Source: Sedimentisphaerales bacterium (GTDB taxonomy: Bacteria > Planctomycetota > Phycisphaerae > Sedimentisphaerales > Anaerobacaceae). Taken from it: 64,000 nt of DNA. Below are positions 8,623-56,082 of this stretch, piece after piece. The DNA is taken from assembly GCA_963708075.1 (NCBI GenBank), contig OY970194.1:2144001-2208000 (forward strand). Reading direction: 5' to 3'. The notes under the pieces are model-generated. The model made no database searches. It saw only the letters and a program-made list of their open reading frames with translations, and had not been told where the DNA came from. A program made the translations under genes and the position numbers. How positions within the stretch are numbered: the stretch's first letter is position 1; each line of letters begins with the position of its first letter.

Positions 8623-8737
8623 GAGCGAAAAGCGGGTGCGGATGGGTCTGTCGGCCGCGTGGGACGGGCATGCATTGAGCAGCCCGCATACGGCGGGTTT
8701 CAAGCCCGCCTCTACTTCATATGGAAGAGGATGTAGC

Positions 8738-15128: not shown

Positions 15129-15156
15129 TTGACGGGGCGGTGCGGGGGTGTATACT
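15129..15156 (+). promoter_or_regulatory. Sigma70-like promoter TTGACG-16-TATACT for aroA-aroC
   Basis: Near-consensus boxes about 40 nt upstream of the aroA ATG. Confidence 0.6.
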
Positions 15157-15196
15157 GTCGGCACGATTGGTCTGGCAGTTTCAAAGAGAGGTCATA

Positions 15197-16475: not shown

Positions 16476-16541
16476 AACCGACGATTCGCCGTTTAGATCG
16501 TAATTCGTAAATCATAAATCGTAAATTCAAGGGTACCTCAA

Positions 16542-18246: not shown

Positions 18247-18529
18247 ACATCGTCAGACGAGGCCACACCATCAATGGACCTGCGACCATGAAGGCGTTCC
18301 TCCTGCGAGAGTCCAGATCTCAAGAAAATGGGACGTTGCCAACAAGTCTGGCGGTGCCACCCGGCGAGCAGGAAGCCTCAGGCTATACACGTACTACGCT
18401 TGCTGCTGCCACCCGTCGCCGGCAGGCTGTCCCCTGCCCTGCGGCGTCCTTCACTCGCGCAAGAACTTGGCCCCGGACGGGTCCGGGGCCAAGTCACAAT
18501 TCCCTATGTCAGGCTGCTGGCTGTGAGGC

Positions 18530-21500
18530 CTACGGGGCGATGACGCGAACGAAACCAGCACCCAGAGCCGGCTGAGTCGGCCGCTCCCGTTGCTGCTCCG
18601 GCAGGGACGGGACGGTCGTGTTGTTCGATGGGTCACGAGTCCTCACAGTCCACGTCCAACCACGGCCCTTGTTGGGCCCGATGTTTACCCGGTAGATCGG
18701 TTGATCGGTCCAGCCGCTGTTGTAGCGACTATCGGAGCACTCGAAGGAGTACTCCACGACGCCGCCGCTGTCATCCGTCGCCACCACGGCCGCCATTTCG
18801 ACCAAGTACTGGCCGATATCGAAACCGAAGTACTCCTTCGGCAGGCCATTCGGGTCCCACTGCGCCGGGTTCGGCAGCGGGGCATTCGCATCTGCTCCGG
18901 CGCCCGTTGTGCCGCACACCCAGTCGGACCAGACGGTTTCATTCAGCGAGGCCGACATATCCCTGGCCTTGACGCGGTAGCAGTACTGCGTGGTCGCAGC
19001 CAGGTTCACATCCGTGTAGACCGTCGTTCTGATCCAGCCGCTGTCGTGACCGTCGGGCGTATCCACCTCATTGACGTCGAAGTAGTACTCCACGCCATTC
19101 GGATCGAAGGACGGTTCGTCGAGTGTTACGATAAGCGCCCTGGGGTCATTCGGATCCGGAGCGACGCTCTCGATCTCCGGAGCCGGCACCGGCGGTGTCC
19201 CGTCCTGCTTGCCCGCGTAGCGGATATCGGACCACTCCGTCTCATTCTTTCGAGGCGACGTATCCCTGGCCTTCACACGATATCCGTACGCCATGCCGGG
19301 TTTCAGGCCGGTATCGATGTAGCTTGGCTTGCTCTGCCAACCGCTACTGTGGCAGTCACCGTGGACGCACTCGAAGGAGTACTCGACGGGCCAGCCCCAG
19401 CCGTCCACAACTTCCTCGACGCTCATGGTCGTCCCGAGGCCGCCGATGGTCAATCGCGGTACGAGATCCCACTCAGGCGGGTTCGGCATGGGCGCCGTGG
19501 TGTCCTGCACCAGCCAGCAGTCCGCGAAGATGGCCAGGTCGATGGCGTTCACCCTGGAATCGAACGTGAAGTCGGCGCCCTCGCACCAGCCATTGGCGTC
19601 CTTGCAGCCTTCGTGGAGCCATTGCTGCGCGAACTTCACGAAGTCGTTGAACTGGATGGCGCCGTCGCGCTCGAGGTCGCAGACTCTGCACGGCTCGAGC
19701 AATCGATAGTGGAAACCGATATCGACAGTGCCAAGGTCCGGCGCGTTGTCCGTCCGCGTCGTGTATTGCGACATGCCGATGCTGCCGGCCAAGGTACTGC
19801 CCGCGTCCACACACGGGCTCTGGCCCACCTGTCCGACGCCGGCAAACATCTGTTCCAGATAGTAGTCGCCCAGCGGTCCGCTGACAAACAGCGGGTCCTC
19901 GTGGATGACGCCCGTGCCGTATGCGAACTGGCAGCCGTCGCTGACCCAGACGTCGTTCGGCCCGGCCCAGATATTGCTGTACGAAACGTTGAGCTTGCCG
20001 CAGCGTCGATCCAGGCTGAAGCCGCTGGCCAGCGCCAGCTCGCTGCCCGCCCGGGCAAGGTTCCGCCACAGGATCGAGTCGATGATGGTGCATTCGCTCT
20101 CGTAGCTGCAGAAGACGGCGCCGCCGAGAACCGGTGATGTTGGGCTCGTTGGCCACGCCCGGTGACACGTTGCCGACAAGCGTGCAGTTCTGTACGGTCG
20201 GCTTGGCATACCACACGGTCGTCAGACCGCCGCCGTCGCGGTAAGCGACGTTATTGACAATCAGGCAGTTGTCGATCGTCATGGCATTTTCGCCGCGCAG
20301 GTAGATGCCGCCGCCCGAACCGAGGGAGGAGTTGCTCGCGACGTTGCAGTCGAGAATCTGGGCGTCCGAGGACAGGCAGAAGATACCGCCGCCCGCCGGT
20401 GTAACCGTGTTGTCGGTCGCATCGTTGGGGTCGTCCGCGGCATCGTTATCCCGGATGTCGCTGTGCTCGATCCGGATGGAGCCGCCGACGCCGGCGAAAC
20501 CGCCGCCCCGCAGCGCCCTATTGGATGTGACGTTGCAGTCCTCAACCGTGCTGGCCACGGCGTCAGCGATGTAGAGTCCGCCGCCGGTGTCCGCCAGGTT
20601 GTCCACGAAATTGCAGTCGAGGATCTGGACGAGCGCACTGCCTTCGGCGCAGACACCGCCGCCGTAACCGATATACGGGTCCAGGCGATGGTTCGGATCG
20701 GTGCCAGCGGTGGACACCGAGGTCATGTTGTCCTCGAACGTGCAGCCACGGAACCTCACCTGGGCATCCGCAGCGCAGTACACGCCGGCGCCAAAGCTGG
20801 GCAGCTCGAAGGGCACCAGGGGTTCCCAGGTCCTTCCGCCGGGCCCAATCGTACCGCCCTGTCCGCTCATGCCGCCGAAGACGCGGTTGCCGCGGATCTC
20901 GCAATGCTCGAAGACCACGTTGCTGTGGATATCGCAGAATGCGCCGCCGCCGTAACCCGAGTACCAGCGATAGTCGCCGATGTACGAGGTCTTGGAGATC
21001 GCCTCCTGGTAGGCATTCGGGTCCCTGATGATGAGATTCATCAGGGAAGACGTTACGGTTCCGCCCACGGTGATCCAGCCCTGGGACAGGTACGCCCAGT
21101 AGCTGGCATAGTCCCAGTCCCAGACCTCCCAGAGGTTCCCGGCCACAAGCTCCTGGGTGACGCCCGTGGAGCTGATGTTGTACGCGCCGGTGGTGCTCCA
21201 GTTGCCGCCGTAGTTGCCTGTGCCGCCGTTCGTGGCGTAGTTGCCGCCGGTGCCGCCGTTGCCGCCGCTGGCCCTGTTGTTCTCGATGCGGCAGTTGACA
21301 ATCCGGGGGGCACTGTAGGGGGCGCAGTACAGGCCGGCGCCATGCGCCCAGCCGCCCCAGCCGCCGCGGCCGCCGTTGTTGTTATCGTCGGCATTGACGC
21401 CGTTGCCGCCGTCGCCGGCCTCGACGATATTGTTCCTGATGAGGCAGTTCTTGATCGTCGGGCGTGCATCGGCCATCACGAGGATGCCGGCGCCTTCCAG

Positions 21501-24500
21501 CGGCACACCGTCCTCGCCATTGGGATGACCCTGGTCGCGATCTCCATCGTCCCCGTCGCCGCCCCGTCCGCCGCAATTCTGGATGGTGAAGCCATTGAAC
21601 ACGGTGCCGGCATCGGCGTTGGACGTGAAGACCACACCAAGGTTGGTGTACCCATTTGTCGTCAGGTAGCCATCGATGATGGTGGACTCGACAGTGCACG
21701 GGTCGTGCGGCGCCCTCGACGTGACGATGATCGATTTATCGATGACCAGCGCCTGAGCATTGTAGCCGCCGAAGTACCGGCCCGGATCTACGATGACCGT
21801 ATCGCCTTCACGAGCCGCATTCACCGCGTCCTGGATTGTCGAATACGCGCCCGGGCCCACGGCAAGCGTTCGGGCTATCTTCTTCTCGAAGGAGACGACC
21901 ACGACCTTGTCGGTACTCATACTGACGATGTTCTGCCTGGCCGTGCTGGCATCGGCGTCCGTGCCCACCCACTGGAACAGGCGGTAGCCCGGATCGGCCA
22001 TCGCATTGACATCGACGACTGTGCCGGGCGAGAGGAGATGCACTACCGTTTGGCCCGGCTCGACCGTGTAGATCCTCCTCGCATAGGCGTTGGGATCGTT
22101 CATGTCGATGACATCAGCGAAATCTGGATAGTAGGCGAACGTCGCCTTTCCATTGCCGACCACGCTCATCGTCAGCTTATAGCGGATGGCTTGACCGACA
22201 TAGAACGGATAGTGATAGCCCATGTCTGCAAAGCCGGTATCCGGCAGGCTCCGGATGTTCGTCGTGATCTGATTCACATCATACGTATCTTCCAGGTTCT
22301 GGAGCACGAACTGCTCGCCGGCGTTGATGCACGGGCTCTGTTGGGGCTGGCCGCCCCCGGCCTGGCTGAGGTAGAACTGGCCCATCGGGCCGCCGACCCA
22401 CAGCGGATCGCCGTTGATGTTGCTGTCGCCGTCGTCGCCATTCTCGATGTCCGAGAAGCTGGCGTCGCATCCGTAGAGGTCATCGCCCTGCCCGTTCAAA
22501 TCGCCCCACCGCCCGTAGAGAGGATCCATGGACAGCGAGCCGTTCCGGCCGATGATACAATCGGTGATCGTCGGGCTCGCATCGCGGCAGGCAACACCAC
22601 CCTTGGGCAGATTGTCGCCGGTGTCGCCGCCGGTCCCGCCATAGGATAGACCCCAGTTGTACGCGATCGTGCACAGGGTGATCGTGGCATCCGAATCGCG
22701 CAGGAAGATGGAGCCGCCGATGTCGCCCGACTGGTTCAGTGTGATCAGGCAGTTGATGATCGCGGCGGTCGCCCCGTTTTCGCCATAGAAACCGCCGCCG
22801 TAGCCGCCGGCGACGTTCCCGCTGATCCAGGTAGTCTTGATGATCGGCGAGCCGTTGGCGCACCAGATGCCGCCGCCGTTGCCGGAGGCGCGGCTGTTGA
22901 GAATCCTGCAGTTGTCAATCGTCGGCGAAGCCTCGTTGATGAGGATGGCGCCGCCGTTGTCCGCGCGGCCGTTGCGAATGGTCAGACCGCGGATGATATA
23001 GTTCGGGTCCTCGTTGCTGTCGAAGATGAAGCCGCGTCCGAGACCCATGACATCGATAATGCAGTCGTTTGGCCCATTCTCGCTGCGAATCGTCAGCCAC
23101 CGGACCTCATTGACGTCGAGGCCGGCGCGCAGATTCAGGTTGTAGTTGCCCGCGCCGGTGTAGATGCCATCGGACAGCACGATCAGGTTGTTGGGCCCGG
23201 CCGCATCGATCGCCGACTGGATCGTCAGGAACGGATTGCGAGGATGCGGGGTTCCAAACTCGTTGTAGAGACTGATCACGTTCTGGCCGATCCGCCCAAA
23301 CTCCACGGCGACCCGGACATCGTTGCCGTCGATCGTCACGGTGTTGTTCGGCTCGCGCGACAGGTCGTTATCGGTTCCGATCCACTGCCGCACACGGTAA
23401 TTCGGGTCGGGGATCGCCTTCAGTTGGATCTTCGTCCCGTCGTAGAACTGATCGCTGGCCGGTTCGAGCGTTCCGTGCGGCCCATCGCCCTTGTCAATCA
23501 CGATTCCCGTGTAGTTGAACAGTTGGGCCGGCCCAAACTCGACGATGACCTCGGTGTCCTTCTCGACGGTCACGTCGTTCTCCGACTTCGTGGAATTGTC
23601 ATCATCTGTGTTCGTCCACTGGCGCACCTTATATCCTTTGTCCGGCGTGGCGATCAGATGTACGACTTGACTGCCGAAGCCCGGATAGACGGTGGCCGTC
23701 ATCGGATCGACGGTGCCGTGAGTCAGACCCGTATTGGGATCAGGCTTGATTGTGACGGTCAGGCGGTACTGGACCAGGCCTTGTGCGTAATGATAGCCCA
23801 TGTCCACGATGTCGGCATCGCCTACTCCGTCGGTCCGCGTCGTGCGATCGGCCAGACCGATGGCACTGGCCGTATCGCTGCCGGCATCCACCGCCGGGCT
23901 TTGCTCGAGCTGCCCGGAGGCCGTCTGGCTCAGGTAGTGGCCCGCGATGAACAGCGGGTCCAAGCCAATGTTGTGGGTCTCCGGATCCCAGGTACGGGTC
24001 ACCGGATCCCAGCCGGGAATCTCGGACTGGCCTTCGATGTGGATCGAGGGAGCGATGCCGGAAATCAGGTTGATGCCGCTCATGATGGCGTCCACAACAC
24101 CATTGGCGTCCGCCACCTGCAGCATCGGCGCGCCTGTGCCGGCAGCCAGGTTCCGGAAGAACGCACTCGTCACAGGATCGCCGGCGATCTGCACCGGGAG
24201 GATCCGTTTCTCCGGGGTCTGGGACGCCGCCTGCACAATCTGCAGCAACGTGTAGTTCGTCTGCGGCTCGGGATCATGCGGCGGGGCATCGCCCATCAAC
24301 AGAATCAGGCGATCCACCTTGCCGGGGCGCCAACCGACGCCGTTGACATCCTCCAGGATACTGCCGTCGATGACTCGCATCAGGGCACTGTACACCGCCT
24401 CGGCGAAATTGAGGCCGCCGCCGACCTGAATCGCGTTGGCGGCCCCGGTCACGTCCCCGGGCACCTCGGTAAACGGCGTTCTGACGCGGAATACATAGTC

Positions 24501-27500
24501 CGTGGTCTCGCCGTTTGTGCCATCGTTGAAATCGCGGTAGTCCACGACGGCCACACGATAGTCCGGATGCGTCTGGGCAATCTGGGCCATGATGTCGTCG
24601 GCGGAAGCCCGGACGGCATTGATGTCGTCGAACATGCTGCCCGTGGAATCGATCAGGAACACGAGATCGAGCGGCCTGGAGACCTCGTTCGGGTCGCGAT
24701 CCGGCTGAATGTCGCTGTATGTGACACCGAGCCTGGAAGGCCTGGCCCCGTAGGGATTGCCACTGGCCAGAGCGATCTGGGAGCCATAGTAGTTGCTGGT
24801 ATTGCCCCAGAGAATGGAGTCGGTCATGACGGCGTTGGCGTCATAGGAGACGTAGAGACCGCCGCCGAGGGCAGACTCGAACGCGCCGGAGACGAAGTTG
24901 TCCACGATGGTGCAGTTGGAGATGGTCGGCTCATTGTACCAGTTGACGGACACGCCGCCGCCGTCGCGGCCCGCGTTGTTGCCGCGGATCAGACAGTTGA
25001 ACAGGATGGGGGCGACATTGACGTCCTGGTCGGAGCCTCCGAAGTACAGACCGCCACCGGAGGCCGCCGCGGTATTGCCGAGGAACTGACTGTCCCGAAT
25101 CGTCATCGGCGAAGCGATCCCGCAGAAGCCGCCGCCCCAGCTCATAAGGCCCGCCAGTCCGTTATTCGGGTCCAGGACGACGTTCGGGTCGATGTTGGAC
25201 ATCAAGGCGCGGTTCTTCGATACGACCGTCCCCTCGATAACGCCGGTGGACTCCACACTATACATGCCGCCGCCGTGATATGCGGTGTTCTGGGCGATGT
25301 TGCAGTCCGTGATCGTCGGGGAGGATCGCGACCACCACATACCGCCGCCGATGGCGGCGTTGCTGTCTTCAATGGTGCAGCGGATGAACTTCGGCGAGCA
25401 CTCGTTCTCGAAGGCGATGGACCCGCCGTAGCTGATGTACACGCTGTCCGGAATGGTGACCATGTTGATGTCGGCGGAGTTGTCACGGAAATTGCAGCTT
25501 TCGAATACCGGATCGCTGCCGCCGCCGATGTACACGGCGCCGCCGAAGTTCCTGATGTTCAACCGCCGGTCCGGAAGCGGATCCGGGCTGCCGCCTATGC
25601 CACACAGTCCGGCATAGGAGTGGTTGTCGATGAAATTGCAGTCGACGAATCGCGGGGAGCTGTAGTATTCGATGTATACGGCTCCGCCGTGGCCGCTGTA
25701 CTTCCAGAAATCGTCGAAGTAGCCAAAGACGCTGGAAGACGGACCACCGTAGTAGGATCGCAGGACGCCAGCGGCATCCCACGGGCCCCACTCCCAGCCG
25801 TCCCACCAGAGTCGAATCGTCTGCTCGATGGACTCCGACAGCATCCAGTTGCCGCCTCGTCCGCCGTTGGCGCCCTGGACACCGCCGCCGCCGTCGCCGC
25901 CGTTGCCGCCGTAGACGGCGCAGTTTCGGAACAGGCAGTTCTCAAAGGTCGGACTGCTGCGGAAACCGATGTACACAGCGCCGCCGTAAGCGTATCCGGC
26001 GTAGCCGCCGTCAAAGCCAACGGGGTGCACATCGTTCTGGCCGCCGTCGCCGTTGCCGCCGTTGCCGCCTCGTACGCTGCAGTCGACGAACTGGCAATTG
26101 CGGATCGTCGGCGAGGCGTCGTAAATCGTCATGGCTCCGCCCCACAGGGGTGAGCCGGGGTAGCCATCGTGATTGCCGCCGTCAATGTCGCTGCCGTCAT
26201 CACCATCCGCCCCGACCCAGTGGACATCCCCGATGCTGAGACCGTCGATGACAGTCTCGGGGCCGACCCCGCGAATTTCGAAGATGTAGCGATGCAGCCG
26301 GGTCGCCGCGACAGTACAAGGATCGTCCGGGTTACTGCCGGTCAACGTGATATTCTTGTCGTGGATTCTGATGTAGTTCCAAGGATACTCACTCGTCGCG
26401 ATGGCGGTATAGGTCCCCGTCGGAACGACGACCACGTCGCCGTCTTCGGCCGCGTCAATCCCGTGCTGAATCGAGATATAATCGCCGTTCGACCCGACAA
26501 AGATCGTCCTGGGCTGCTTGAACTCCACCGTGACGTGTCTGTCGGGACCGATGATGACGACACTGTCCGACTTGGTCGCTGTATCATCGGTGGTTCCGGA
26601 CCACTGGCCGACGCGCCATCCTTTCTCCGGGGACGCCTTGACCGCCACAGCCGTGCCTGCATAGTAGGTGCCGCTCAGCGGGCTGATCGTGCCGTGGCCC
26701 CCGATCACCTCGGTCGTCAGGGTGTACTTGGGCAGGTCCGTATGATTCGGGAAGTGATAGCCCAAATCCACCAGGCCCAAATCGCCGACGCCGTCGGTAC
26801 GCGTAGTCAGGCCTGCCAATGAGGAATCCGCCGCGAAAGTACTTCCGGCGTCCACGGCCGGGCTGTTGACGTCCTGGCCGGATCCCTCCTGACTCAGATA
26901 GAATTCGCCTAGCGGACCATCGACAAACAACGGATCTGCGTTGATGTTGGTGATATTCAGATCCGCGCCCGAAAGGGTTTCGATCTGCTGCCTCTCAGGG
27001 CTGACGTACCCGAAATCGCCATCCGGGTTCTCGTAGAACAGGCTGTGCGTGACGGAGGAGTTCGGGGGGCTGTCTTCGGCGATCGCATGTTTGGTGTTCT
27101 TGGTCAGGATGCAATCGCGAACCGTGACGTCCGAGTCCCAGTCGCAGTAGATGGCGCCGCCGAGCCTGTCGGCCATGTTCTCCGAGAACGTGCTGTTCGT
27201 GATGGTGGGCGTCGCAAAGAGCCCGGCCGCAATGGCGCCGCCGTTGCGCCGGGCGGAGTTGTTCATGAACAAGCAGTTCTTCACGCGATGGTCGACATAC
27301 CCGCCGTAGAAGCTGATGGCTCCGCCGGTGCCTTTGAGGCCGCCGGCTTTGTTGTAACCGAAGCTGCAATTTTCAATGTTGGCGTTGGTTCCCACGACGA
27401 CCATACCGCCGCCGACATCGACGCCCTTGCCCAGATACACAGTCCGCACGAAATCGCCACGATTCATGAGCCAGATATCGTAGATGAGACTGAGCCCGGC

Positions 27501-30500
27501 GTCGCCTAATATGCCAATATCGAGGACGTTCGTGCCCACGTCAGCCGGAGGCGCAATACCGCTCTCGCCCGTGGAACTGTTGTCGCTGATCGCGCCTCCT
27601 GTAAGTCTCACGGTTCCGGCGGTCAGGAACAATCCACCGCCGTTCTTGCCCTTGTTGCTCAGGAAATAGCAGTCCGTGAAGACCGCATTGAAGTCCTCGA
27701 AATGCACGCCGCCGCCCTGGCCATAGAAGCCGTCGGTGGCATCGTTGCCGCCGAAGATGCAGGACTTGAGGTTCAGGTCCAGGATGATCGGGGTGTTCGG
27801 ATCGCCGCTGTCATAGAAGGCATCGATTCCACCGCCGCTCTCACCCGTACGGTTGCCCGAGAAGGAGCAGCCTGTAATAGTGGCGTTGCTCTTGAGGCGC
27901 ATGGCTCCGCCGGAGCCGGTCGCGTCGTTGCTCTGGAAATCGCACTTATTGAGGTTCACCTCGGAGCAGAACGGACCGATGTACAACGCACCGCCCTCTT
28001 CCACAAAACTGTTGTCATAGTTGGGGATCGCTCTGGTGGTGGCTGCGTCGTCGGGAGCGGGCGCCTGGTTCCTGCTGAACAAGCACTCGTTGGCATCGAA
28101 GACACTCGATCCTTCCATGTGGACGGCGTCGCTCCTGTTGCGCGTCAGCGTGCAGCCCTGGAGGGATAGATCGCTGCCCTGCGTCGCGTAGATGGCGCCG
28201 CCGGGCGAGAACATGATGAGTTGATCTTCGAGGTTCATGGCCAGGCCGGTGATCAGCACGAATGTGAACGACACATAGGTGCTGTTCTCGTTAAAGGTGC
28301 AGTCGATGAACTTCAGGCTGGAGCCGTTCTGGTACACCGCACCGCCGGCGATCGTGCCGTATGTGGTCACGCTGCCGCTGGCGCCGGGACCGGCCGGGTT
28401 CGGATAAGGATCGGCCAATGCATTTCCAGGGCCATCCGCCCCGGGGGCGCCGACAATACCTGTCGTGGCCACGTTGTTGGCAAAGACGCAACGTTCGAAC
28501 ACAGCGTCACTGCCGGCTTCGCAGTACGCGGCGCCGCCATGGCCGTCGCCAATGGCGTTGCCGGCGTCGCCGCCCCAGCTCTCGCGCCCGTTGCCGTCGT
28601 TCGGATTGCTTCCGTTTCCACCGTCGCCGCCCATACCGCCCTGCGCCAGGCAGTTGCGGATGACGCAATCGACGAATCTCGGTTTGCTGGCGCTCAGACA
28701 GGCGATAGCTCCGCCGTAACTGTTCCCAGAGGCGTGACCGCCGTGGCCGCCCCAGTATCCATCGATATCTGAACCCTGGGGAATCATCGGGCCGTTCAAG
28801 CCGTTGCCGCCCTGGGCCGCGACGACCCTGCAGCTTTCAATCACGCATTTCGAGAAGGTCGGCGAGCTGCCATTCTCGCACAGGATGGCGCCGCCGTAAC
28901 CCGTGCCGGTTTCATCTGTACCACTCGGCATTCGCATGGGACGCGGGATGCTCGTATCCTCGCCGCCGTACTCATCCGGAATGATGAAATGCATCCCCCA
29001 GCCGCCGCCCGTGATGCCGACGGTGCCGATCCAGTAGCCGTTGCGAATCGTCAGACCTTCAATGAGGCAGTCGGATGTCTCTCCACGATAGAAGTGGAAT
29101 GCGCGCTTGCGGGTGAAGCGAGCGCCCTGGCAGTCGATGATCGTGTTGGCCACCGTATTCGGGTCATTCGGGTCCTTGGACATGATCCGGATATTCTTCT
29201 TCTGCAGATCGATGCCCGTCGGATCCGAGATATAGTGGACGCCTTCACTGATGATGATGTTCGTGTCGCCCGGGCTGGCGGCGGAAACCGCCTCTTCGAT
29301 CGTGCGGAACGCCTCCGGCACGTGCAGGTTCCGGGTCTTGTTCAGCTCGAACTCCACAGTGACGAACTTGAAGCTGCTGTCCATCGTCACGGAGTTCGTG
29401 TTGACGTTCCAGGCGGGATCGTTGTTGGTGCCGATCCATTGCCTGACACGGTAGTTGGGGTCGGGAATCGCCAGGAGCGGGATCACCTGGAATTCGTGGT
29501 AGTTGCCGCCCATCGGCTCGACCGAGCCGTGACCGCCGATCACCTGGATCACCAGTTGATACCGGCCCTCGCCCACATAGTGGAAGCCCATATCGACGGT
29601 GTCGGCATCGCCGACCTTATCCGTGCGGGTAGTGTGCTGATCCATCCCGCGGCTGGCGGCCGATGCGCTACCGGTATCCACAGCCGGGCTGGTCTCGGCC
29701 TGGCCGGCCGCCACCTGGCTGAGGTAGTAGGACTCCGTAAAGAGCGGATCTGCCGAGATGTTGCCCTGGAGCCAATTCAACGTGCGGCCCGCCTGGACGG
29801 AGATGCCGCTGCGGCCGCCCTGGATGTCACTGTATTTCACGGTCAGCGACGCCGGCCACTGCAGATGGATCGGATCGCTGGAACTGCCGACCGCCGCCTG
29901 CCTGCCCACCCGCGCGTTGTTACCCCAAAGAATGCTGTCCATCAGCGTGGTCTCACTGCTGTACGAGCAGAGCAGACCGCCGCCCTCGCCGCGACTGGAG
30001 TTGTTCGGATCGCTTGCCGTGTTCTCGACAATCGTGCAATTCGCGATCGTGGGCGCGGCAAACCAGTACGAGGTGACACCGCCGCCGCCGATCAGGGCCG
30101 AGTTGCTCTTGATCAGGCAGTTCTTGAGCATCGGGTTGCACGGATCGCCGCTGAAGTAGACGCCGCCGCCGGTGCCCCGCACGGTGTTCTCGCCGATGAT
30201 GCAGTTCTCGATCAGCGCCCCGGACGAGAAGGCAAATACGCCGCCGCCGGAACCCAGATCCAGATTCCTGGTCTGCGTCACCCGAGGGGGTACAAACCCA
30301 AAATTGGGATCCCACTGAGAGTTCGGATCGTTCGGATCGGGCCACAGGTAACTCGGGGCCCACGTGTTCGGGTCGAATGGAACCGGCGTGATACCGGGAA
30401 GGCTCACCGTCTCCGTCGGTCCGTTGGCCGCGTTGCCCCGGATGCTGCACTGGCGGATGGTGGGCGCACCGTTGCTCCAGTACATGCCGCCGCCGAACTG

Positions 30501-33500
30501 GGCCGTGTTGTTCTGAACCACGGTATTGAACACATCGACCGTGGCGCCTCGCCCGTACCAGTACAGGCCGCCGCCGAACGGCGCGTTGTTGTTCTCGAAG
30601 AAGCTGTTGCGCACGCACACCGTGCTGCCGTTGTACCAGTCGCCGATGACATCGTCGAGGATTCCACCGCCATAGAGACCGCCGCCGGCGCCGATCGTGC
30701 TGATCGCCCGGTTACTCACGAATGTAGTCTCGTTGATGTCGAGCCGGCAGTCGTGCCAGACATAGAGACCGCCGCCGTCGCCGACGTAGAGGGCATTGTT
30801 GGCATCGTATCCTGCGGTGTTGCCGAAATACGCGCCGCCGGTGATCTTGATGGTGCAGAAGGGGTCAAAAGCCTGACCGCCGCCGTGGGTTCCCGCCGAG
30901 TTGCCATTGATCGTGCAGGCAATGAGCTCGGTCTCGCAGCCCTGGGAATAGAACTCGCCGCCGCCGCTGTTGTCTGTGACCAGGTTGTTGCTGATCGTGC
31001 AGTTCGTCAGCTTGGCCTTGCAGTTCGGCATGTAGGCGATGGCGCCGCCGAAGTTCGTCGGAATGCTCCGAATCCCGGTTCCGGGGTCGCCCTGGCTGCC
31101 ACCCGAGCCACCCTGGCCGCCGGCGCCCAGGCTACCGCCTGAACCGCTCGGGCCGCCGTCGCCGCCCGTGCCGCCGCTGCCGCCGGCCCCGCCGTCATTA
31201 CCGCCTGCGCCGCCGCTGCCGCCGGCGCCGCCGGCATAAGAGGGCACAAGGTTCGCCCCGACGTCCTCAACGCGGGCGATACTTCCTGAGATCTCCGTAT
31301 CGGATATCTCGATCTGGCAGTCGTCGCCGAAGAAGATGGCGCCGCCCCAGGACCTGGCTCCGTTCTTGCCCATGTGGCCGCCGTCACCACCGCGGCCGCC
31401 GGGACCGCCGACGCCCGCAGCACCCTCCTGACCATCCGCGCCATCCTCCGCATCTCCGGGACCTTCACCGCCGGTGCCACCCGCACCGCCAGCGCCGGCG
31501 TCACCACCGGCCCCGCCCGCGCCGCCGGGACCGCCGTAGTTACCTGTCCCTTGCTGGATCCGGCTGTCTCTCACTATGCAGAACTTGATCACAGGACGGC
31601 AATTCGGTCCGAAATACATCGTGCCGCCCAGGGCTTCGCCGCCGTCGCCACCGTCGCCGCCGCGACCGCCGTCGCCGCCTATTCCGCCTGGTCCACCGGG
31701 ACCACCCGCGCCACCGGCGCCGCCGGCGCCGCCGGGCCCGTCATTGAAGCCCTCGCTGCCGGGTTGACCATCCTGACCCGCCTGACCGGTCCCGCCCGCC
31801 TGGCCTGCCTGACCATCCTGACCCTGACCGCCAAAACCACCGTCACCGCCGATAGCACGGTTATAGACAAACGTGCAATGCAGGATCAGCGGTGCACTAT
31901 TCGCGTCGAAATAGAAGGCGCCGCCATAGCCATGACCGCCGCGACCACCCTTGGCAGCGGGCGCACCCGGCGCCCGGGAGCACCATCGGCGCCCGGCTGA
32001 CCATCGAAGCCCGGTTGACCAGCTGTGCCGGGAATCGGCGCATTCGGGTCCACGGGCTGAGGCAGATTCGGATCGTTCGGGTCCGCGTCCGGTGGAGCAT
32101 CCAGAGGATCGTTCGGATCCGGAGGATCCGCAGGATCCGGCTGGGGCTGAGGGGCTTGCGGAGGAACATTGGCATCCGCACCTGTCTGGCCCTGGGCCAG
32201 GCAGTTCTCGATCACGAGGTTTGCCAACGTCGGACTGCTTCCCCTGAAGCAGGCAATCGCGCCGCCAAATGCATCCCGACCATCGGCGCCATTGTTCCCG
32301 GTAGCGCTGTTCGGATCCCCACCGCTGACCAAGCCGTTACGAATGGTGAATCCCTGTATCACGGCCTCCGGGCCTTCGCCGTTCTGGAAGACGAATGCGC
32401 GGCCTAGCCCGCTGCAGTCAATGATTGTGTGGGCCACCGTGTACGGATCGGTCGGGTTCTCGCTGGTTAGAACGATCGACTTGCCGCCGAAATCGAGGTC
32501 ATGAGTCTGGTACGTACCTCCCAAGACGATGATCTTGTCGCCGTGAGAGCGGGCGTGCTCAATGGCCTCGGCAATGGTCTTATACTGGCCGGGGACCGCC
32601 AGGCTCCTGCCTTGCATGAAGCTGACCGTGACCACTTTGTCGCCGGTCATCGTAACCGTGTTGTCGTTGGCCCAGGACTTGTCGTTGTCGGTCCCTTGCC
32701 ACTTGTCGACGATGTACGTGCTCTCGGGCTGCGCCGTCAGATCCACCACCGTGCCTTCGCGGTAGAGTCCCGCCACGCGATGGTAGTCCGGCAGCAGCGA
32801 CCCGTTCCTGCTCGACACCTTCGTCGTCAGGCGATACACCGGGATCTGCTCGAATTCGATCTTGATGTCCATCGGCCCCATCACCGTGATGAGGATGTTG
32901 GGGTCCCTGGTCGTGTCGTTGCCGATCCCGACCCAGCGTTTGATCCGGTAGCCGTCCTTCACGTGCGCGGTCAGCCGCACCACCTCGTACTGGCGGAAGG
33001 AGCCGCTGCTTGGCTCGACGGAGCCGCCGGCCTCATTCGCATCCACCGGTGCGTCGCTGGCATTGACCACCGTGACCGTCAGCGGGAAAGACTGCGCCGG
33101 ACCCGCCCCATAATGGGCGCCCATGTCGATGGCTGCGGTATCCTTGACGCCGTCCGTTCTCGTGGTCATCTCGTGCAGCTTCTGGGCCACGGGCGCAGCG
33201 GTTTCCGGATCACCCATGTCAATGCACGGGCTGCTGATCAACTGCCCGGCCTCCATCTGGCTGAGGTAGTATGCGCCCAGAGGTCCTTTGGTAAATTGCG
33301 GATCGGCGAAGATGTTGCCGGTGCCGAGATCGTCGATGTCTTCGATGCAGGAGTATGTCGCTGTGGCGCCGACGAGATCATCGCCATTGCCCCAGATGAT
33401 GCAGTTCGTAATGATTGGATTGGAGCCGTCGAAGGCCCAGATGCCGCCGTCGCGGGCCAGATTGTTCTTGTCCAGGACGATCGTGCAATTGGTGATCGTC

Positions 33501-35611
33501 GGCGAGGCGCGGACGAGGTCGAACTGACCGCTGCCATTGATCGCCGCGTTGTTGGTGACGAAACAATTGACGAACGTTGGCGAGGCATCGGTGCAACTGA
33601 CGCCGCCGCCCACGTTCATGCTGGTATTATTCCGGATGATGCAATCGCTGATGCTCGCTTCGCTCTGTTCGAAGTTCAAGCCGCCGCCGACGGCGAATTC
33701 GCCGAAGGCCGTGTTGTTGCTGATGACGCAATTGGTGATTTCCGGCGAGCCGGCGAAGCAATCGATGCCCGCGCCGTAGTCGCTCGCCTGGTTGTAACTG
33801 ATGATGCAGTGCGTGATGGTCGGAGAGGCGCCTTCGATGCGGATGCCGGCGCCGATGGCCGCTATGCCCCAACTGACAGTGAAGCCCTTGAGCACGCTGC
33901 CGCGTCCCTCGCCACTGGCGAATGTCACAACAGACCCTTCTGTGAACATGCCGAAGATGACGGTCGTGTCGGGATAAATGACCGGATCGGTCGGCGCCAG
34001 CGGGTTTCCGCTGCGCACGGTGATAGCCTTACCCTTGAAGTCGATGTGCTCGGGATAGATGGTGGTGCTGCCGGGCCTGCCCTCCGCAATGATCTCGTCT
34101 CCATCGACGGCCTCATCAATCGCCGTCTGGATCGAGAAGTAGAAATTGGAGGGATTCCGCGTGTTGATCACACGGGCAACTTGTCCCTGCGGCACGGCCT
34201 TGAGGGCCTTGGCCACGTTGAGACGTCCCTGCGACAGGCACAAGCCGGGCAGAACCGGGTCCACCGTCTGCATCAGCGCGTGCTTCACGCGATAGTGGGA
34301 CAGGTTGGGGGACTGCGACCAGAGCAGCGCGCATGCTGCTGAGACGTGCGGCGCCGCTACGGATGTGCCTGAGAGGGTCCCATACTTGGTCGTCACACCA
34401 TCCGCCTTCATGGCGGCCGTCTCTTCCGTCGGCGTCGTGCTCAAGACACCCTCGCCGGGCTCGCCAAGATCGACCGACCTCCGTCCATAGTTCGAGGTGG
34501 AAGCAAGCCGATCCTTGTTATTCGTGGCCAGGACCGAGATGATGTTGTACAACTCATAGCAGGCCGGATACACTGGAGAATTGTCGATGTTCCGCGAATC
34601 GTTGCCCGCGGCGGCCACGACCAGGACACCCTTCTTGCCGGCCTCCTCGATCGCGTTTCTCAGGCTCTCACTGTACTCCGTCGAGGCCCAGGAGGCGTTG
34701 ATGATCTTCGCCCCCGAGGCGACCGCGTACTCGATGGCGGCGACCGCGGCATTAAGGTTGACACCGTTGGCGTCGCCGACCTTCAGCGGCATCAGGCTGA
34801 CCTGCCAGCAGGTGCCGGCGATGCCCGTCGCGTTGTTCGCAGCGGCGCCGATAATGCCGGCCACGTAGGTGCCGTGGTATGCATCGTCCTTGAAGTCCAC
34901 CGTATCGGTCAGGAAGTTGTAACCATTGCGATCATCGATACGACCGTTGCCGTCATCATCCACGTCCGGCTTGCCCGTTTGCTCCTTGGCGTTCACCCAC
35001 AGGTTGGCCTTGAGGTCCGGATGCTCGGGGTCCATGCCGGTGTCGAGGATGGCGACGATAACGTTCCTCTTGCCGGTCTGGATGTCCCATGCCTCGGGCG
35101 CGTCGATATCCGCGTCCGCCAAACCGCCATCCTGGCCGGTGTTGTCCAAATTCCACTGAAGCTTGAAGTTCGGGTCGTTCGGCACACGCTGGAGCTGGTA
35201 GCGGTAGTTGGGCTCTGCGTACAGCACGTTTTCGCTGGCGGCAAATTGCAGCATTGCATCCGCGGCGGAGACGCCGGGCGGCAGTTTCACCAGGGTCAGT
35301 CCGGGCACGATCTCGTCGTACTGGCCCGCTACAGATGTCCCCTCCATGATCTCATTGGAGATCGTCTCGCGCACGGCGCGCGCAGTCCGAGGACCATACA
35401 GGTCCGAACGAGCAGACGTTAGATTATCCCCCGTGGCGAAGCGAACGAGCAATTCGCTCTGCCCATCCGAAGTGACGCCGCCATAGCCGATGGCGTCCCA
35501 CAAGGAAAGCGACAAATCATCCGCTGTCAAGGCCGTCCGAGCGCAAAAAACCAGCACCGAGCATACCAGTAACCGCCAGGTGCCGGAACGCCCCTGAGTT
35601 CGCTGTTTCAT
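18530..35611 (-). CDS. Giant secreted multidomain protein (~5690 aa): S8 subtilisin, repeated beta-helix/InlB-B-like modules, Gly-rich tracts, vWA, dockerin-like, 3x FN3-like; frameshifts at ~31975 and ~20129
   Basis: ORFs 31886..35629, 19473..31619 and 18530..20209 join into one frame by adding one G at ~31975 and removing one base at 20126-20132. Triad VAILDTG / YHGTYVAG / GTSVAAPHV; many GGAI/GGG...FxxN repeats; LDLVFLIDSTGSM (vWA); CDLERDGAIQFNDF...ADFTFDSRVNAIDL (dockerin-like); YRVKARD (FN3-like). Confidence 0.88.
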
Positions 35612-35712
35612 ATCTCCACTTCCGTTCAATTGTGCCTGCGTCTGTACAGCGTCTGTACTAAGGAACCCTCACATGCAGACTATCTCTATCTGCCAATGGA
35701 AGCCCATCCGCG

Positions 35713-38700
35713 TTAAAGTCCGCTCCCGGCCCCCGGACTCTCCTCCAATGCCGCGATCGCCTCTTGGTCCATCTCATCCTGCAGAATGATCGTCGGTTTG
35801 ACCAGGATCAGCAGGACTTTCTGATCGCGGACCGTGCTGCGGTTGGAGAAGAGCAAATTCACAATGGGGATTTTGCTGAGTATCGGCACTCCCGACTCCT
35901 TATCCACTGCCACCGTGATCTTGTGGCCGCCCAGCAGCAAGGTTCCCCGGTCGGGAACGCTCACACGAGTCATCACGTTGGCGGTCTCCGTCTCGGGAAC
36001 CTCCACCGGATACGTGAGGACCGTCGCGGCCGTGTTGGTGGTGGTGCCATTGGTCGTCGTTCCGCCGGCGTTTCCCGGAATAGGCGCCGAGACGATGTGC
36101 TGTTTGAAGCGAAGCAGGTCCGTCTGGGTCGTGATGATGTTCAGCAACACGTGTTTCCTGTCTTTGGTGATCGTCGGGGTGATCGTCAGGTTGCTGCCTA
36201 CCGGCTGGTACCCGATACTCTGAGGCGTGTAGATGCCCTGCGTCGAGAGGCCGCCGCTCAACGTGCCCTGCGTGCCCTGCGTCACCGTCGGGGGTAAGGC
36301 ATAGGAAATATAATCCTGGAGATAGAAGAACGCCGACTCCCCGCTCAACACCGTCACTTTCGGCGCCGAGAGCGACTCCGAGTCGGTCCGCGCCTGCGTA
36401 GCCCGAAGCAACAGGCTCGCCTGCAGATTGTCCAGAACCGAGCCGTAGCCGGCCTGCAGTCCCAGCGCCGGCGTGGAGCTGAGAACCCGGAATACTGCCC
36501 GACACATTCGTCTGCGTGGGCCGAACGTTCAGGAACGAATCCTGCTCCACTGTCACGACGCCCCAGTTGCCGCCGAAGTTGTACGAGAAGTCCAGATCCA
36601 GCCCGATGTCCTCCAGGAAGTTCTCCGTAACGGCGAGGAACCTCGCTTCGATGGAGACCTCGTTACCCAGGGACTTGCGAAGCTGATCGAGCATGTCCCG
36701 GATCTGCTGATGCACCTCGGGGGTCTGGTAGACCACCAGTTTCTTCGGCTGCTGATCCGGGTAGGGTGTGATCGTTCCCTCGCCGGTTTCACTGAGGTCA
36801 AACCAGGTATCCGGCTCGATTGTCTGCTCGATCAGATATCGGAGGCTCTGGGCCATGATACCGCTCATATAGCCGGTCATGCCCATGCCGCCGCCCATCA
36901 TCCCGCCGCCCATGCCGCCGCCCATCATGCCGCCGCCCATGCCACCCATCATCCCGCCGCCCATGCCGCCCATGCCGCCGCCGTAGCCGCCCATGCCGCC
37001 ACCCATGCCGCCACCCATGCCGCCCATGCCACCCATCATCCCGCCGCCCATGCCGCCCATGCCGCCGCCGTAGCCGCCCATGCCGCCACCCATCATCCCG
37101 CCGCCCATGCCGCCCATGCCGCCGCCCATGCCACCCATACCGCCGCCATAGCCGCCCATGCCGCCACCCATGCCACCCATCATCCCGCCGCCCATGCCTC
37201 CCATGCCACCCATCATCCCGCCGCCCATGCCGCCCATCATCCCGCCGCCCATCATCCCCATCATGCCCATCTGGCTTCCAATTTGAGCATAATTAGCGGG
37301 CTCGCCGACAAGATCGCTGATGTCGTAGACACGCGTTTCCATCTTCTTTGCAGGCAGCGAGTAGTTGGTGCCGACGGTGATCACGCCTCTGTTCACGATG
37401 TAGTCGAGCTGAATGTCCGCCTGTGGGTTGGACATCGCGTTGAGCAAGTTCTCCAGGGCAGTGCCCACCTTGACGCTCGGCAGGCCGTCCATACTGATCG
37501 GCGTGCTCGGCTCGATCAGGGCGTTCTCCGACAGATCGCGCCACAGGACAACGATGTTCAGCGGCGGCTCCACCGATTTCCTGACGATTTCAATAGCCTC
37601 GCTCAACGGCATCTCCGGCGTAAGCGCCGACAGATCGACAACCTTCTCGAGTTGGTCGTAAATGAGTATATTCGCCGGATCCAGTTGGATCGGCTCCTCG
37701 GGCTCGCGCGTCGGTTTCTCGATGATTTCACGCCATTCCTTGGGGTACGTCATTTCCTTGTGGTACGGAATCTTGGCCTCGTCAGCCTCGAGCAGGATGT
37801 TCGCCCGTTCCCTGGCGCCCAACCGGCGCATCTCGAGCTGCTTGCGCAGATAGATCGTATCTTCGGTCGCCTGCTTCATCCGCAGCGCCTCGTCGTGAAG
37901 AGGATCGATGGCGAGAATCATTTCAAGCTGACCGAGGGCCGCCTCATATCGCTGCTGCTGCTGATACGCCTTGGCGCGCTCCATCAGTTCATCGATTCTC
38001 TGCTTGCGATCGATCTCCGCCTGCTTGCGGAGGTCCTGCTGCGTCTGAGCTGCTTCCAGGCGTCTCTGCTCAACGAGTTGCTTGTCCCTGATCGCCTGTG
38101 CTTCGGCGATGCTCGCGTTGGCTTCCTCGCACTGCACGGTATACTGGCGATACAGTTCCTCGCCCAACTGGCCCTGATATTCATTCACGCGGCGCTGGGC
38201 ATCGAAGACGACCTCCCGGGCCTTGTCAAACTCGCCCTGGGCGAGACTTCTCTGGCACTGATTGACGGCGTTAGTGACAACCGCCTGGGTATGGCTGCGA
38301 ATGATGCTCCTTCGGCGATTGATTTCTCCAACGAAACCACCGGCGTCCGGCTCCGCCGGTACTGCTGCGGCCGGTTCACCTGCAGCCAGCGATGTCTGCG
38401 GCGCTGCGGGCGTCTGTGACATTGCGGATGTAGCCAGCAGCCGGTCAATAGCCTCGATGTAGTCCTCCGGGCGCTTGCCCTCGGCGGCTGTGAACTGTCC
38501 GCTGCGGGCCACTTCAACGAATCCCCGCCGAGCTCCCTCCAAATCACCGGCGGAATAGAGTTCCAGACTGCGGTTGTACAAGGCCTGAATGCGTCCGGCC
38601 TCGCCCTGTGCCGGACCGGCAGGCTCCGTGGCGGCGCGATACGGCATCGCCGTAGGTATCGGCGACGCAACGGGCAGCATCGAAGGCGCCGTTGGGGCCG

Positions 38701-39481
38701 TCACTCTCGTCTCCGGCTGCGGAGCGGCGATCGCTGTCTCTGCGTTGTCGATCTCCGCCAGGTACCCTCGGATTGTCGTAGCAACAGACGCCGGCAACCC
38801 CTCGCTCTTGAGCAGCTCGGTGAACCCCTGCCGGGCCTTCTTGAGATCGCGGGAATGGTAAGCGAGCATACTCTGGTAATACAACTCGCCGATCCGGTCC
38901 GTTTCCTGGGTCGTGACGCCACTCGGCGCAAGAGCGTTCTGAGTGTTCGCGCCGCTGTCCGGGGACGTGCCGGCCTGCGGGCTGACGCTGTCACTGGCCG
39001 TGCCGGTGATTCTCGACTGCCCCGACGTGCGCAGCAACTGCGCCACTTCGAGACGCTCATTCTCGCTCAGGAACGTGCTGCTCTGGATGCTCTCCAAACG
39101 AGCACGCCCGCGCGCGGTATCACCCTTGCGAAGCAAGTCCTGCCCGGCCTGCTTGGCTTCCAGTGCCTTCTTACGCTCCGCCGCTGCCCGGCTCGCTTTC
39201 TCCGCCAGAGACTGCAGCTTGCGCTGATCCAGAGGATCCAGACGATCCGCAAATTTCTGAGCTCCCTGGAACATCTTCTCCGCATCTGCATAGTTGCCGC
39301 GGTCGTACTGATATGTCCCCATTTGCATGTAACGTTGAGCGAAGTCACGCTCAGACGCATCATCATTGTTCTGCGATGGGCCCGCCTGGACAAAGGCTGT
39401 CGCGACAAGAAAGACCGATGCCAGGATGGTGGATGCGGACCCTCTCCGCAGAAACTTCGCGAATACTGTTGGCCTGTCCAA
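35713..39481 (-). CDS. Atypical secretin (GspD/PilQ superfamily, ~1255 aa) with TPR-like/coiled-coil N-terminus and GGM insertion; frameshift at ~36484
   Basis: TTG start with GGAGG RBS; signal peptide; RVYDISDLV, LVVYQTPEVHQQI, VSIEARFLAV, LSAPKVT, VSVPDRGTLLLGG, SGVPILSKIP, LLILVKPTII. Removing one base in GAGAACC joins the two ORFs. Confidence 0.9.
36866..37270 (-). repeat. Coding low-complexity Gly/Met (GGMGGGMM, GGY) repeat, ~135 aa
   Basis: CCGCCCATG-type tandem repeats on the + strand, in frame in the secretin. Confidence 0.95.
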
Positions 39482-39784
39482 AACCTAACCTCCTGCCAAT
39501 AAAATCATCACCCTTTTTACGGAAAGACCTTGCACAACCGTTACTTATTAAGTACCTCCAAGCGAAGGTCGTAGGCCCCAGTCATGCCTGTAATTTATTA
39601 AAATAGCGAATTTTTTGCAAGAGAAAAATTGCACCGCAGCTTGTTTGGCCGATAAAATCTAACATTTCCAGTACCAAACGCAAAGTCCCCCGATGCTTAG
39701 GGTGAAATTGGGGCCATGTAAAAGAGCGGATTATAGGCGCCCTGGGCAATAGGATGTGACAGAGACATATTGGAGCAGGCAATC

Positions 39785-48241: not shown

Positions 48242-48254
48242 ATCGGAGAACACC

Positions 48255-50567: not shown

Positions 50568-50670
50568 GGAATATTCAAGAGGTACCAACGATAGGCTATA
50601 CCGTCGAGCGGCAGGCATCGCGTGGATTCGATTCCCGGTGCGTGCCCTCGCGTTTGTGAAGAGGGTGTAA

Positions 50671-53446: not shown

Positions 53447-53447
53447 C

Positions 53448-53535
53448 TATTGATTATTGATTATGGATCATTGATTATTGGATAGGACTACCAGCCATGA
53501 ACAAATCATCAATCATCAATCATCAATCATCAATC
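53448..53535. repeat. Inverted heptamer arrays (GATTATT-type vs 4x AATCATC) around the gspG RBS and start
   Basis: AATCATC x4 at 53504-53531 inside the gspG leader; imperfect complementary array at 53448-53480. Confidence 0.9.
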
Positions 53536-56054: not shown

Positions 56055-56082
56055 AAACAGCCGGTCACGGCTGAGGCGCGTC

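What the first reader, a model, noticed from the sequence alone, without database searches (positions are those of the whole stretch)
18530..39481. Secretin plus 17-kb giant protease/adhesin two-gene unit: candidate dedicated export system for a ~600 kDa surface protein
Seen: once frameshifts are repaired, a stand-alone secretin gene sits ~100 nt upstream of one co-oriented ~5690 aa ORF. That ORF has a signal peptide, an intact subtilisin triad, about seven beta-helix modules closed by a conserved DPLF..GPLG.YYLSQ...SP.VDAG...TTRTD...VDMGYHY cap, InlB-B-like spacers, collagen/PGRS-like Gly tracts, vWA, a dockerin-like pair and three FN3-like repeats. It has no autotransporter barrel, RTX repeats or CTERM anchor. 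Known: secretins normally lie in T2SS/T4P/T3SS operons; beta-helix giants normally use type V secretion. Inference: this secretin may be a cargo-specific pore or anchor, possibly powered by the T2SS machinery 8 kb away, and the protease may process the polyprotein into modules. This is my best candidate for an undescribed system.
Basis: partly seen in the sequence, partly recalled or inferred. Interest (0 to 1): 0.85.

Follow-up and report, generated by a model that had tools for sequence, protein, structure and literature searches.

The report
Giant surface protein beside displaced secretin
A 600 kDa rod-like surface protein found in most members of one order of sediment planctomycetes sits next to an outer-membrane pore gene, but that pore appears to be the lineage's ordinary pilus-type pore separated from its usual partner genes, not a private export channel for the giant.

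Summary
In detail: a TPR-secretin gene lies 101 nt upstream of a co-oriented 5,693-aa (597 kDa) ORF. Two of the three frameshifts are corrected by independent contigs. The giant has six, not seven, capped beta-helix modules. Adjacency is real in relatives: 36 of 37 informative genomes of the same family, and 7 of 7 in a second family. The dedicated-pore reading is not supported. The secretin belongs to one phylum-wide clade (100/100). In other classes it is the fourth gene of a long-PilM (Amuc_1101-like) operon. That operon lacks its secretin in this genome and in 20 of 20 relatives read. Most planctomycetes with this secretin show no giant, two families keep both genes unlinked, and tsaB is a more constant neighbour (35 of 40) than the giant (9 of 40). 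The nearby T2SS has its own secretin and is unlinked in relatives. The protease is optional. Best reading: a displaced PVC-type PilQ-like secretin next to an undescribed, order-wide family of length-variable surface rods. That the giant is a client of this pilus system stays open (about 25%).

The parts
35713..39481 (-). PVC-type TPR secretin gene (about 1,250 aa once one frameshift near 36452-36486 is bridged): TPR region, N0/STN-like domain, N3 with Gly/Met-rich loop, secretin barrel
   Evidence: model of the orthologue; tree
35785..36399 (-). Secretin domain PF00263
   Evidence: 85.6 bits, over cut-off
35612..35712 (-). 101-nt spacer; no terminator-like or sigma-70-like site found in it
18530..35611 (-). 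Giant gene, 5,693 aa / 597 kDa after two read-supported indel corrections (window 31972 and 20129)
35519..35611 (-). Sec-type signal peptide (approximate, read by eye)
34187..35494 (-). S8 subtilase prodomain and catalytic domain, triad D190/H246/S417
33107..33313 (-). beta-helix cap 1 of 6
31071..32029 (-). Main Gly-X-X tract cluster (aa 1195-1514), spanning the frameshift at 31972
29574..29759 (-). cap 2
26751..26945 (-). cap 3
24063..24680 (-). vWA-like insert (DxTxS-type motif; VWA_4 below cut-off), boundaries approximate
23784..23969 (-). cap 4
22209..22418 (-). cap 5
19703..19906 (-). cap 6
19487..19690 (-). dockerin-like EF-hand pair
18602..19486 (-). three FN3-like repeats (conserved tail of the family)
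18465..18494 (-). perfect 14-bp inverted repeat after the giant's stop, probable terminator
   Evidence: read by eye
39770..40570 (+). tsaB-like gene (TsaD fold), divergent from the secretin; its most constant neighbour
15140..17870 (+). aroA-aroC, convergent on the giant; part of the conserved block
47340..58635 (+). Canonical T2SS cluster with its own GspD; not part of the unit

Best explanation
The secretin is the single-copy, vertically inherited outer-membrane pore of the PVC-type pilus-like system (Akkermansia Amuc_1098-1102 kind). In this class it has left its long-PilM operon and settled beside tsaB (shown by genomics). It most likely works with the long-PilM alignment operon (G000 C1:6466667-6472596) and a secretin-less pilB-pilT-pilB-pilC-pilin motor locus (C1:about 168,700-179,000) (inferred). 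The giant is a separate, order-core gene. It is exported by Sec, folds in the periplasm into a rod of 1-10 capped right-handed beta-helix modules joined by InlB-B domains, and carries swappable payloads (S8, an HExxH domain, vWA, NIDO). Its constant dockerin/FN3 tail probably tethers it to the envelope, and it probably acts as a long-reach adhesin or glycan-binding scaffold (fold shown by model; function inferred). It most likely crosses the outer membrane through a shared secretin-based machine. Its place behind this secretin is old gene order, with at most loose co-regulation.
For: Tree: the window secretin, 18 order-level and 23 class/phylum-level homologues form one side of a 100/100 branch, apart from 12 other secretins of this genome and E. 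coli HofQ and GspD. In 6 of 20 class/phylum loci read, the homologue ends a long-PilM operon. This genome's long PilM matches those (E 1e-34 to 1e-67) and scores best on Amuc_1101_fam. 20 of 20 such operons read in the order lack a secretin, and a profile of their third gene hits the gene just before the secretin in the three f36 operons (E 4e-7, 6e-7, 6e-3). Long PilM is in 146 of 151 order genomes; orthologue-level secretin hits (E<=1e-24) are in 142 of 151. Secretin-like hits occur in 184 of 201 phylum genomes, the giant's cap in 12 of 201. Neighbour control over 40 loci: tsaB upstream 35, aroC/aroA directly downstream 17, giant adjacent 9, giant within about 5 kb 5. Where unlinked, the giant sits directly divergent from aroA in 6 of 7 f7/f4 loci read. 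Module model: pLDDT 85.6, beta-helix; nearest folds are AlgE epimerase A-modules and PL6 lyases, at low TM-scores. Motor locus.
Against: Adjacency is near-invariant where it occurs: f1 36 of 37 informative, f8 7 of 7, with co-orientation, short spacers (44-330 nt in the 23 of 26 cases where the start was called sensibly) and no terminator in this spacer. It appears in three separate parts of the secretin tree, so it has lasted long or recurred. The loci were picked to cover families, and only 3 of 40 are f1, so that tally understates adjacency. Neither the secretin nor the long PilM reaches the Amuc family cut-offs, and no Akkermansia sequence was in the tree. No evidence of expression or location was obtained.
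Confidence: 0.6

Rival explanations
1. The giant is a true client or pilus-associated adhesin of the PVC long-PilM/secretin system (a role like PilY1's). Secretin and giant are co-expressed under selection, and the machine still serves pili too.
For: Long-lasting co-oriented adjacency in three lineages. About one copy of each gene per genome outside f2. Signal peptide with no type I, V, IX or CTERM signature. vWA inserts, as in pilus adhesins (recalled).
Against: No adjacency in f5 (0 of 8 loci read; 23 of 23 pairs on different contigs) or f7 (0 of 11 read). tsaB and aroC are equally or more constant neighbours. A shared promoter-like spacer motif in 7 loci of two f1 genera suggests that the giant has its own promoter (inference). 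No PilY1 propeller hit in Pfam.
Confidence: 0.25
2. One reading: a dedicated two-gene export unit, driven by the T2SS 8 kb away, with the S8 cutting the giant into modules.
For: Adjacency conserved in f1 and f8; intact triad in this copy.
Against: The secretin clade is phylum-wide and mostly without giants. It is tied to long-PilM operons in other classes. The T2SS has its own GspD and is on another contig in 5 of 5 relatives. S8 is intact in 14 of 26 closed ORFs, internally deleted in 3, replaced by an HExxH domain in 2 and absent in 7. G097 keeps the secretin with no giant found.
Confidence: 0.05
3. The giant never crosses the outer membrane. It is a periplasmic or envelope scaffold in the enlarged planctomycete periplasm, and the secretin is unrelated to it.
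For: No known outer-membrane export signal. Core-gene-like retention in small (1.7-2 Mb) genomes. An enlarged periplasm is described for the phylum (PMC11131199, passages).
Against: Strong length and payload variation (closed ORFs of about 1,100 to 10,565 aa) and adhesin-type inserts fit an exposed protein (inference). The same capped modules occur in proteins with CTERM-like hydrophobic tails (read by eye).
Confidence: 0.1

Closest known systems
Akkermansia muciniphila Amuc_1098 (PilQ) and the Amuc_1098-1102 cluster (PMC4960237, PMC5332112; passages read)
   Same: TPR-bearing N-terminus plus a C-terminal secretin domain; homologues end an operon that starts with a long FtsA/PilM-like gene whose best NCBIfam match is Amuc_1101_fam.
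   Different: Scores are far below the family cut-offs (49-98 of 750; 158-268 of 650). Here the secretin is detached from the operon and about 350 aa longer. No giant neighbour is mentioned in the passages read.
Canonical T4aP PilQ and T2SS GspD, including 'loner' secretins (PMC6668835, passages read)
   Same: Secretin fold. T4aP genes are usually spread over several loci and gspD is modelled as a loner, so a stand-alone secretin is not unusual in itself.
   Different: Below the TIGR02515 and TIGR02517 cut-offs; no AMIN or Secretin_N Pfam hits; separate branch from HofQ, GspD and this genome's canonical secretins.
Omnitrophota giant proteins beside T2SS-like loci (bioRxiv 10.1101/2023.11.21.568195, abstract and passages read)
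   Same: PVC-related giants with N-terminal S8 and dockerin-type repeats, near secretion genes; self-cleavage was proposed there too.
   Different: Those are over 30,000 aa, with many transmembrane regions and SecA domains, beside a cluster of more than 10 secretion genes. This one is 5,693 aa with no hydrophobic segment above 1.6 on a 19-residue window, beside a single secretin.
Beta-helix autotransporter and two-partner-secretion passengers (recalled)
   Same: Long right-handed beta-helix rods, some with a subtilase head; Chlam_PMP repeats in two orthologues.
   Different: No barrel, no TpsB partner. The helix is split into capped modules with InlB-B spacers and ends in dockerin/FN3 domains.
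Annotated but uncharacterised family members, e.g. P0102 (AQT70244.1, named 'Serine protease AprX' from Anaerohalosphaera lusitana)
   Same: Capped modules and the same type of tail.
   Different: Named after one domain only; no study of the family was found in the searches run.

Membership tests
Amuc_1098 family secretin (NF042912) | Score above the curated cut-off of 750 bits | tested here: not met
   49 bits for the C-terminal piece; 50-98 bits for seven intact homologues
Amuc_1098 family secretin (NF042912) | TPR N-terminus plus C-terminal secretin domain | tested here: met
   architecture of Amuc_1098 from PMC4960237 passages
Amuc_1098-1102-type pilus system | Secretin in one operon with a long Amuc_1101-like PilM | tested here: not met
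   Not in this genome or in 20 of 20 order operons read; met in 6 of 20 class/phylum loci for the same clade
Amuc_1098-1102-type pilus system | One clade with Akkermansia Amuc_1098 itself | not tested
   No Verrucomicrobiota sequence was fetched
T4aP PilQ (TIGR02515) | Cut-off 284 bits, AMIN domains, pilMNOPQ operon | tested here: not met
   51.5 bits for the piece, 60-112 for intact homologues; no AMIN hit
T2SS GspD (TIGR02517) | Cut-off 351 bits, N0-N1-N2-N3 domains, gsp operon | tested here: not met
   55.7 bits; no Secretin_N hit; the window's real GspD scores 463.6
Type Va/Vb secretion | C-terminal beta-barrel, or a TPS domain with a TpsB partner | tested here: not met
   No such Pfam or NCBIfam hit; the tail is dockerin/FN3
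T1SS RTX adhesin | RTX nonamers, no signal peptide, ABC/MFP neighbours | tested here: not met
   0 strict nonamers; signal peptide present; neighbours
CTERM/sortase-anchored surface protein | C-terminal hydrophobic segment with a basic tail | tested here: not met
   Highest 19-residue hydropathy near the C-terminus is -0.1
S8 subtilase | Asp-His-Ser triad in an S8 domain | tested here: met
   PF00082 E 8e-56; D190/H246/S417
Cellulosome-type dockerin | Duplicated Ca-binding repeat and a cohesin partner | tested here: inconclusive
   Dockerin hits; PF00963 cohesin not found in G000, found in 2 of 5 genomes searched
PilY1 tip adhesin | vWA domain plus C-terminal beta-propeller | tested here: not met
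   Weak vWA only; no propeller hit
Dedicated two-gene export unit | Co-transcription, and export of the giant that depends on this secretin | not testable with these tools
   Needs RNA data or mutants

The most novel reading that the evidence does not exclude
The giant family is the main cargo, or filament-associated adhesin, of the PVC-type long-PilM/TPR-secretin machine in this order. A pilus-type secretin would then export or hold folded 100-1,000 kDa multi-module beta-helix rods with swappable enzyme heads, a route not described for such proteins in the searches run. It would give the uncharacterised planctomycete counterpart of the Amuc_1098-1102 system its first substrate.
Probability: 0.25. 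Interest if true: 0.8.

Novelty: new variant of a known kind. Interest (0 to 1): 0.47.

Why it matters
The giant is a near-core gene of a widespread anaerobic sediment order: the cap is found in 116 of 125 genomes outside family f2. It varies about tenfold in length and swaps its catalytic head, and it is annotated only by single domains. It is a good candidate for the main long-reach surface structure of these polysaccharide degraders. The work also reassembles on paper a scattered PVC pilus-like system (secretin, long-PilM operon, motor locus) that appears to span Planctomycetota. A named cultured strain encodes a family member, so location and export route can be tested directly.

Tried and rejected
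Complex prediction of the secretin's periplasmic domains with the giant's tail gave no answer (score 0.00); it is evidence neither way. No RNA holder was listed. The secretin frameshift could not be checked with reads (low depth). A phylum search with one atypical short module missed known positives and was replaced by a cap profile. A BLAST tally of S8 status missed distant S8 domains and used offset positions, so the count combines. The start-codon call failed for 3 of 26 loci (L077, L086, L089), which are left out of the spacer range. One search used only giant hits that include the cap among the rows listed, and only the secretin rows listed; G008 was mis-binned there and is adjacent. The third gene of the long-PilM operon matched no informative NCBIfam, Pfam or named Atlas family. 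PDB sequence search gave only generic TPR and secretin hits. The scan's earlier findings returned nothing in four look-ups. Nine literature searches found no paper on this giant family or this gene pair; subscription journals are mostly outside the library, and no supplements were read. A second-look structure comparison of the secretin model was not obtained. Rejected: link to the T2SS at 47-58 kb; obligatory self-processing by S8; the idea that the cap is unique to this system (68 of the 150 best hits carry full caps, several with other tails).
Full report
1. Observation. The minus strand carries a secretin gene (39481-35713) in two frames and, 101 nt further on, a giant ORF (35611-18530) in three frames. 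Contigs of public runs show an extra base at 20129 (3 of 4 runs, 2 studies) and a missing base at 31972 (1 of 4 runs, one contig of depth 4.8). With both applied the ORF is 5,693 aa, 597 kDa and acidic, with 112 Cys. The secretin break (about 36452-36486) had too little cover, but close relatives have one ORF of 1,164-1,249 aa. The frameshifts are most likely assembly errors. Pfam gives TPR_2 and Secretin for the first gene, and S8, Beta_helix, Flg_new_2 and a sub-threshold VWA_4 for the giant. The tail matches dockerins and FN3 domains. The triad is D190/H246/S417. There are six caps, and they are the only strong cap hits in the genome. No barrel, strict RTX nonamer or hydrophobic anchor was found. 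The lineage is inferred to be Planctomycetota, class Phycisphaerae, from the names of family members.

2. Is adjacency conserved? Yes, in part. In the genome's own family f1 (43 sampled), 37 genomes were informative and 36 have the giant directly behind the secretin: 30 by coordinates, G049 across an N gap, four across contig breaks by their N-termini, and G081. G097 has aroC there and no cap was found in it. Six were uninformative (contig end, or secretin orthologue not found). Family f8 is adjacent in 7 of 7, G036 by N-terminal likeness only. In f3 one of three is adjacent and two have aroC and aroA between. In f7 none of 11 loci read is adjacent; by coordinates 11 of 29 lie within 10 kb downstream, 16 are on other contigs and 2 are placed otherwise. 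In f5 none of 8 loci read is adjacent although 26 of 26 genomes have caps. In f2 caps occur in 4 of 25 genomes and no giant follows the secretin in 9 of 9 loci read. On a fast secretin tree, direct adjacency falls in three separate places, with at least two changes forced by well-supported branches; it is either ancestral and lost several times, or recurrent.

3. Control for synteny. The pair lies in a block tsaB <- secretin -> [giant] <- aroC <- aroA. Over 40 loci chosen to cover all families (only 3 from f1), tsaB is upstream in 35, aroC or aroA directly downstream in 17, the giant adjacent in 9 and nearby in 5. Where the giant has left the secretin it sits directly divergent from aroA in 6 of 7 f7/f4 loci read, and in 6 f5 loci beside other housekeeping genes (those labels by eye). 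Gene order here is sticky for genes with no plausible link to secretion, so adjacency alone is weak evidence. A divergent position also shows that the giant can have its own promoter, and 7 loci of two f1 genera share a promoter-like motif in the spacer (inference). In favour of coupling, the genes are co-oriented, spacers are short, and no terminator-like site was found in this spacer.

4. What the secretin is. The genome has 13 secretin matches over the Pfam cut-off with nearly full coverage, and two partial ones. Orthologue-level hits to this one occur in 142 of 151 order genomes, with a second such copy listed only for G099, and hits at E<=1e-10 in 184 of 201 phylum genomes (not all checked for clade membership). 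In a careful tree, the window protein, 18 order-level and 23 class/phylum-level homologues are one side of a 100/100 branch that broadly follows taxonomy. In 6 of the 20 class/phylum loci read (families f36, f34, f18, f25) the homologue ends an operon that starts with a long PilM. This genome has the matching long PilM at C1:6466667, followed by two genes and no secretin. The same three-gene, secretin-less operon was seen in 20 of 20 order genomes read, and its third gene is related to the gene just before the secretin in the f36 operons. Traces of the old link remain: operon genes lie 5-8 kb from the secretin in two f11 genomes, and PilM 2 kb from it in G090. The long PilM scores best on Amuc_1101_fam, below cut-off. 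[quoted passage not shown] A secretin-less pilB-pilT-pilB/gspE-pilC-pilin locus at C1:about 168,700-179,000 could supply the motor. Scattered T4aP loci and loner secretins are normal (PMC6668835, passages). A model of an orthologue shows two periplasmic domains and a secretin barrel (pLDDT 75). The cap of the giant occurs in only 12 of 201 phylum genomes, so the secretin is far older and wider than its proposed cargo.

5. The nearby T2SS. It has its own GspD above cut-off. Its orthologue is on a different contig from the secretin-giant pair in 5 of 5 relatives, and no close GspD match lies in the 14-20 kb read upstream in three of them. Its closeness here looks incidental.

6. What the giant is. 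Caps are found in 121 of 151 order genomes, 116 of 125 outside f2. The tail-plus-cap query mostly gives one strong locus per genome. Open frames at the 95 tail hits used have a median of 3,735 aa and reach 10,565 aa; some are cut by contig ends. The unit is InlB-B domain(s), a right-handed beta-helix, then the cap. The model is confident (pLDDT 85.6, pTM 0.82) and resembles AlgE A-modules and PL6 lyases only at fold level. Some Gly-rich stretches are modelled with high confidence but without regular secondary structure, which would fit polyglycine-II bundles (inference). Heads and inserts vary: of 26 closed ORFs, 14 have S8 with His and Ser motifs or aligned residues, 3 close relatives have an S8 lacking the segment with the catalytic Asp and His, 2 have an HExxH domain and 7 have no protease; vWA and NIDO inserts come and go, and S8 can be internal. 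Self-cleavage cannot be essential to the family, though this copy may mature itself as subtilases do (established knowledge). The dockerin/FN3 tail is the constant part, and 15 ORFs of this genome share a similar dockerin-like domain. No cohesin was found in G000. The module is not private to this family: 68 of the 150 best library hits have full caps, several with CTERM-like or dockerin tails.

7. Mechanism. Shown by sequence and comparison: gene identities, the clade of the secretin, the split operon, the modular rod, the optional protease. Inferred: the secretin serves the PVC pilus-like machine; the giant is exported by Sec, folds with calcium and disulfides in the periplasm, crosses the outer membrane through a shared secretin-based system, and works as a tethered long-reach adhesin or glycan-binding scaffold with an exchangeable enzyme head. 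Odds: shared secretin with inherited adjacency 0.60; giant a selected client of this system 0.25; periplasmic scaffold 0.10; dedicated two-gene pore 0.05.

8. Novelty. The secretin works like Amuc_1098/PilQ but fails the family cut-offs. No description of the giant family or of the pair was found in nine searches; the closest idea in print is the Omnitrophota giants beside T2SS-like loci (bioRxiv 10.1101/2023.11.21.568195, abstract and passages). PMC11131199 was read as passages for background; other papers were seen only as search listings. Verdict: a real, partly conserved pair and an undescribed order-wide giant protein family, but not a new kind of secretion system on present evidence. New variant of a known kind; interest 0.47.

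Noticed in passing
L138 (G158), L141 (G165), L137 (G277), L140 (G201): In other planctomycete classes the same secretin clade lies with TPR genes and ExbB/ExbD genes. L138 and L141 run long PilM ... secretin, TPR genes, ExbB, ExbD, ExbD; in L137, and by ORF layout L140, two copies of the secretin flank such a cluster. A secretin coupled to a proton-driven motor would be unusual and may deserve its own look.
   Followed up: partly
window 47340-50567 (+): GspC and GspD are read as one 1,075-aa ORF. The linker looks non-coding and contains a second lipoprotein-type signal, and relatives have 767-833-aa frames, so this is probably a sequence error, not a true fusion.
   Followed up: partly
window 42203-45085 (-) and 45342-47160: A second S8 protein with two S8 stretches, next to an EpsI/DUF3485-like gene and a CPBP (myxosortase-like, below cut-offs) intramembrane protease.
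   Followed up: no
L081, L082, L085 (G132, G089, G025), N-terminal part of the giant: Close relatives carry an in-frame deletion of about 130 aa in S8 that removes the catalytic Asp and His, while the rest of the giant is intact.
   Followed up: partly
L078, L079, L080, L088, L090, L091, L096, secretin-giant spacer: A conserved promoter-like motif is shared by two f1 genera and not seen in the window's spacer.
   Followed up: partly
G073:C19 and G104:C135: Family members with open frames of 10,565 and 9,915 aa. G030 has two giants on the secretin's contig and G150 two on different contigs.
   Followed up: no
L110:10360-12597 (G000 C1:6470359-6472596): Third gene of the long-PilM operon: a conserved Planctomycetota protein of about 570-760 aa with no informative Pfam or NCBIfam match; candidate partner of the secretin.
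   Followed up: partly
G000 C1, 13 loci listed: This 7.5-Mb genome has 13 near-complete secretin domains, 9 PilM-like genes and 61 ORFs with a pilin-like N-terminal pattern, a large type IV filament repertoire.
   Followed up: no
window 8621-13456 (+) and 5262-8391: A 1,611-aa lamin-tail/CotH protein, and a DNA methylase/Mrr gene near an HNH-AP2 endonuclease gene.
   Followed up: no
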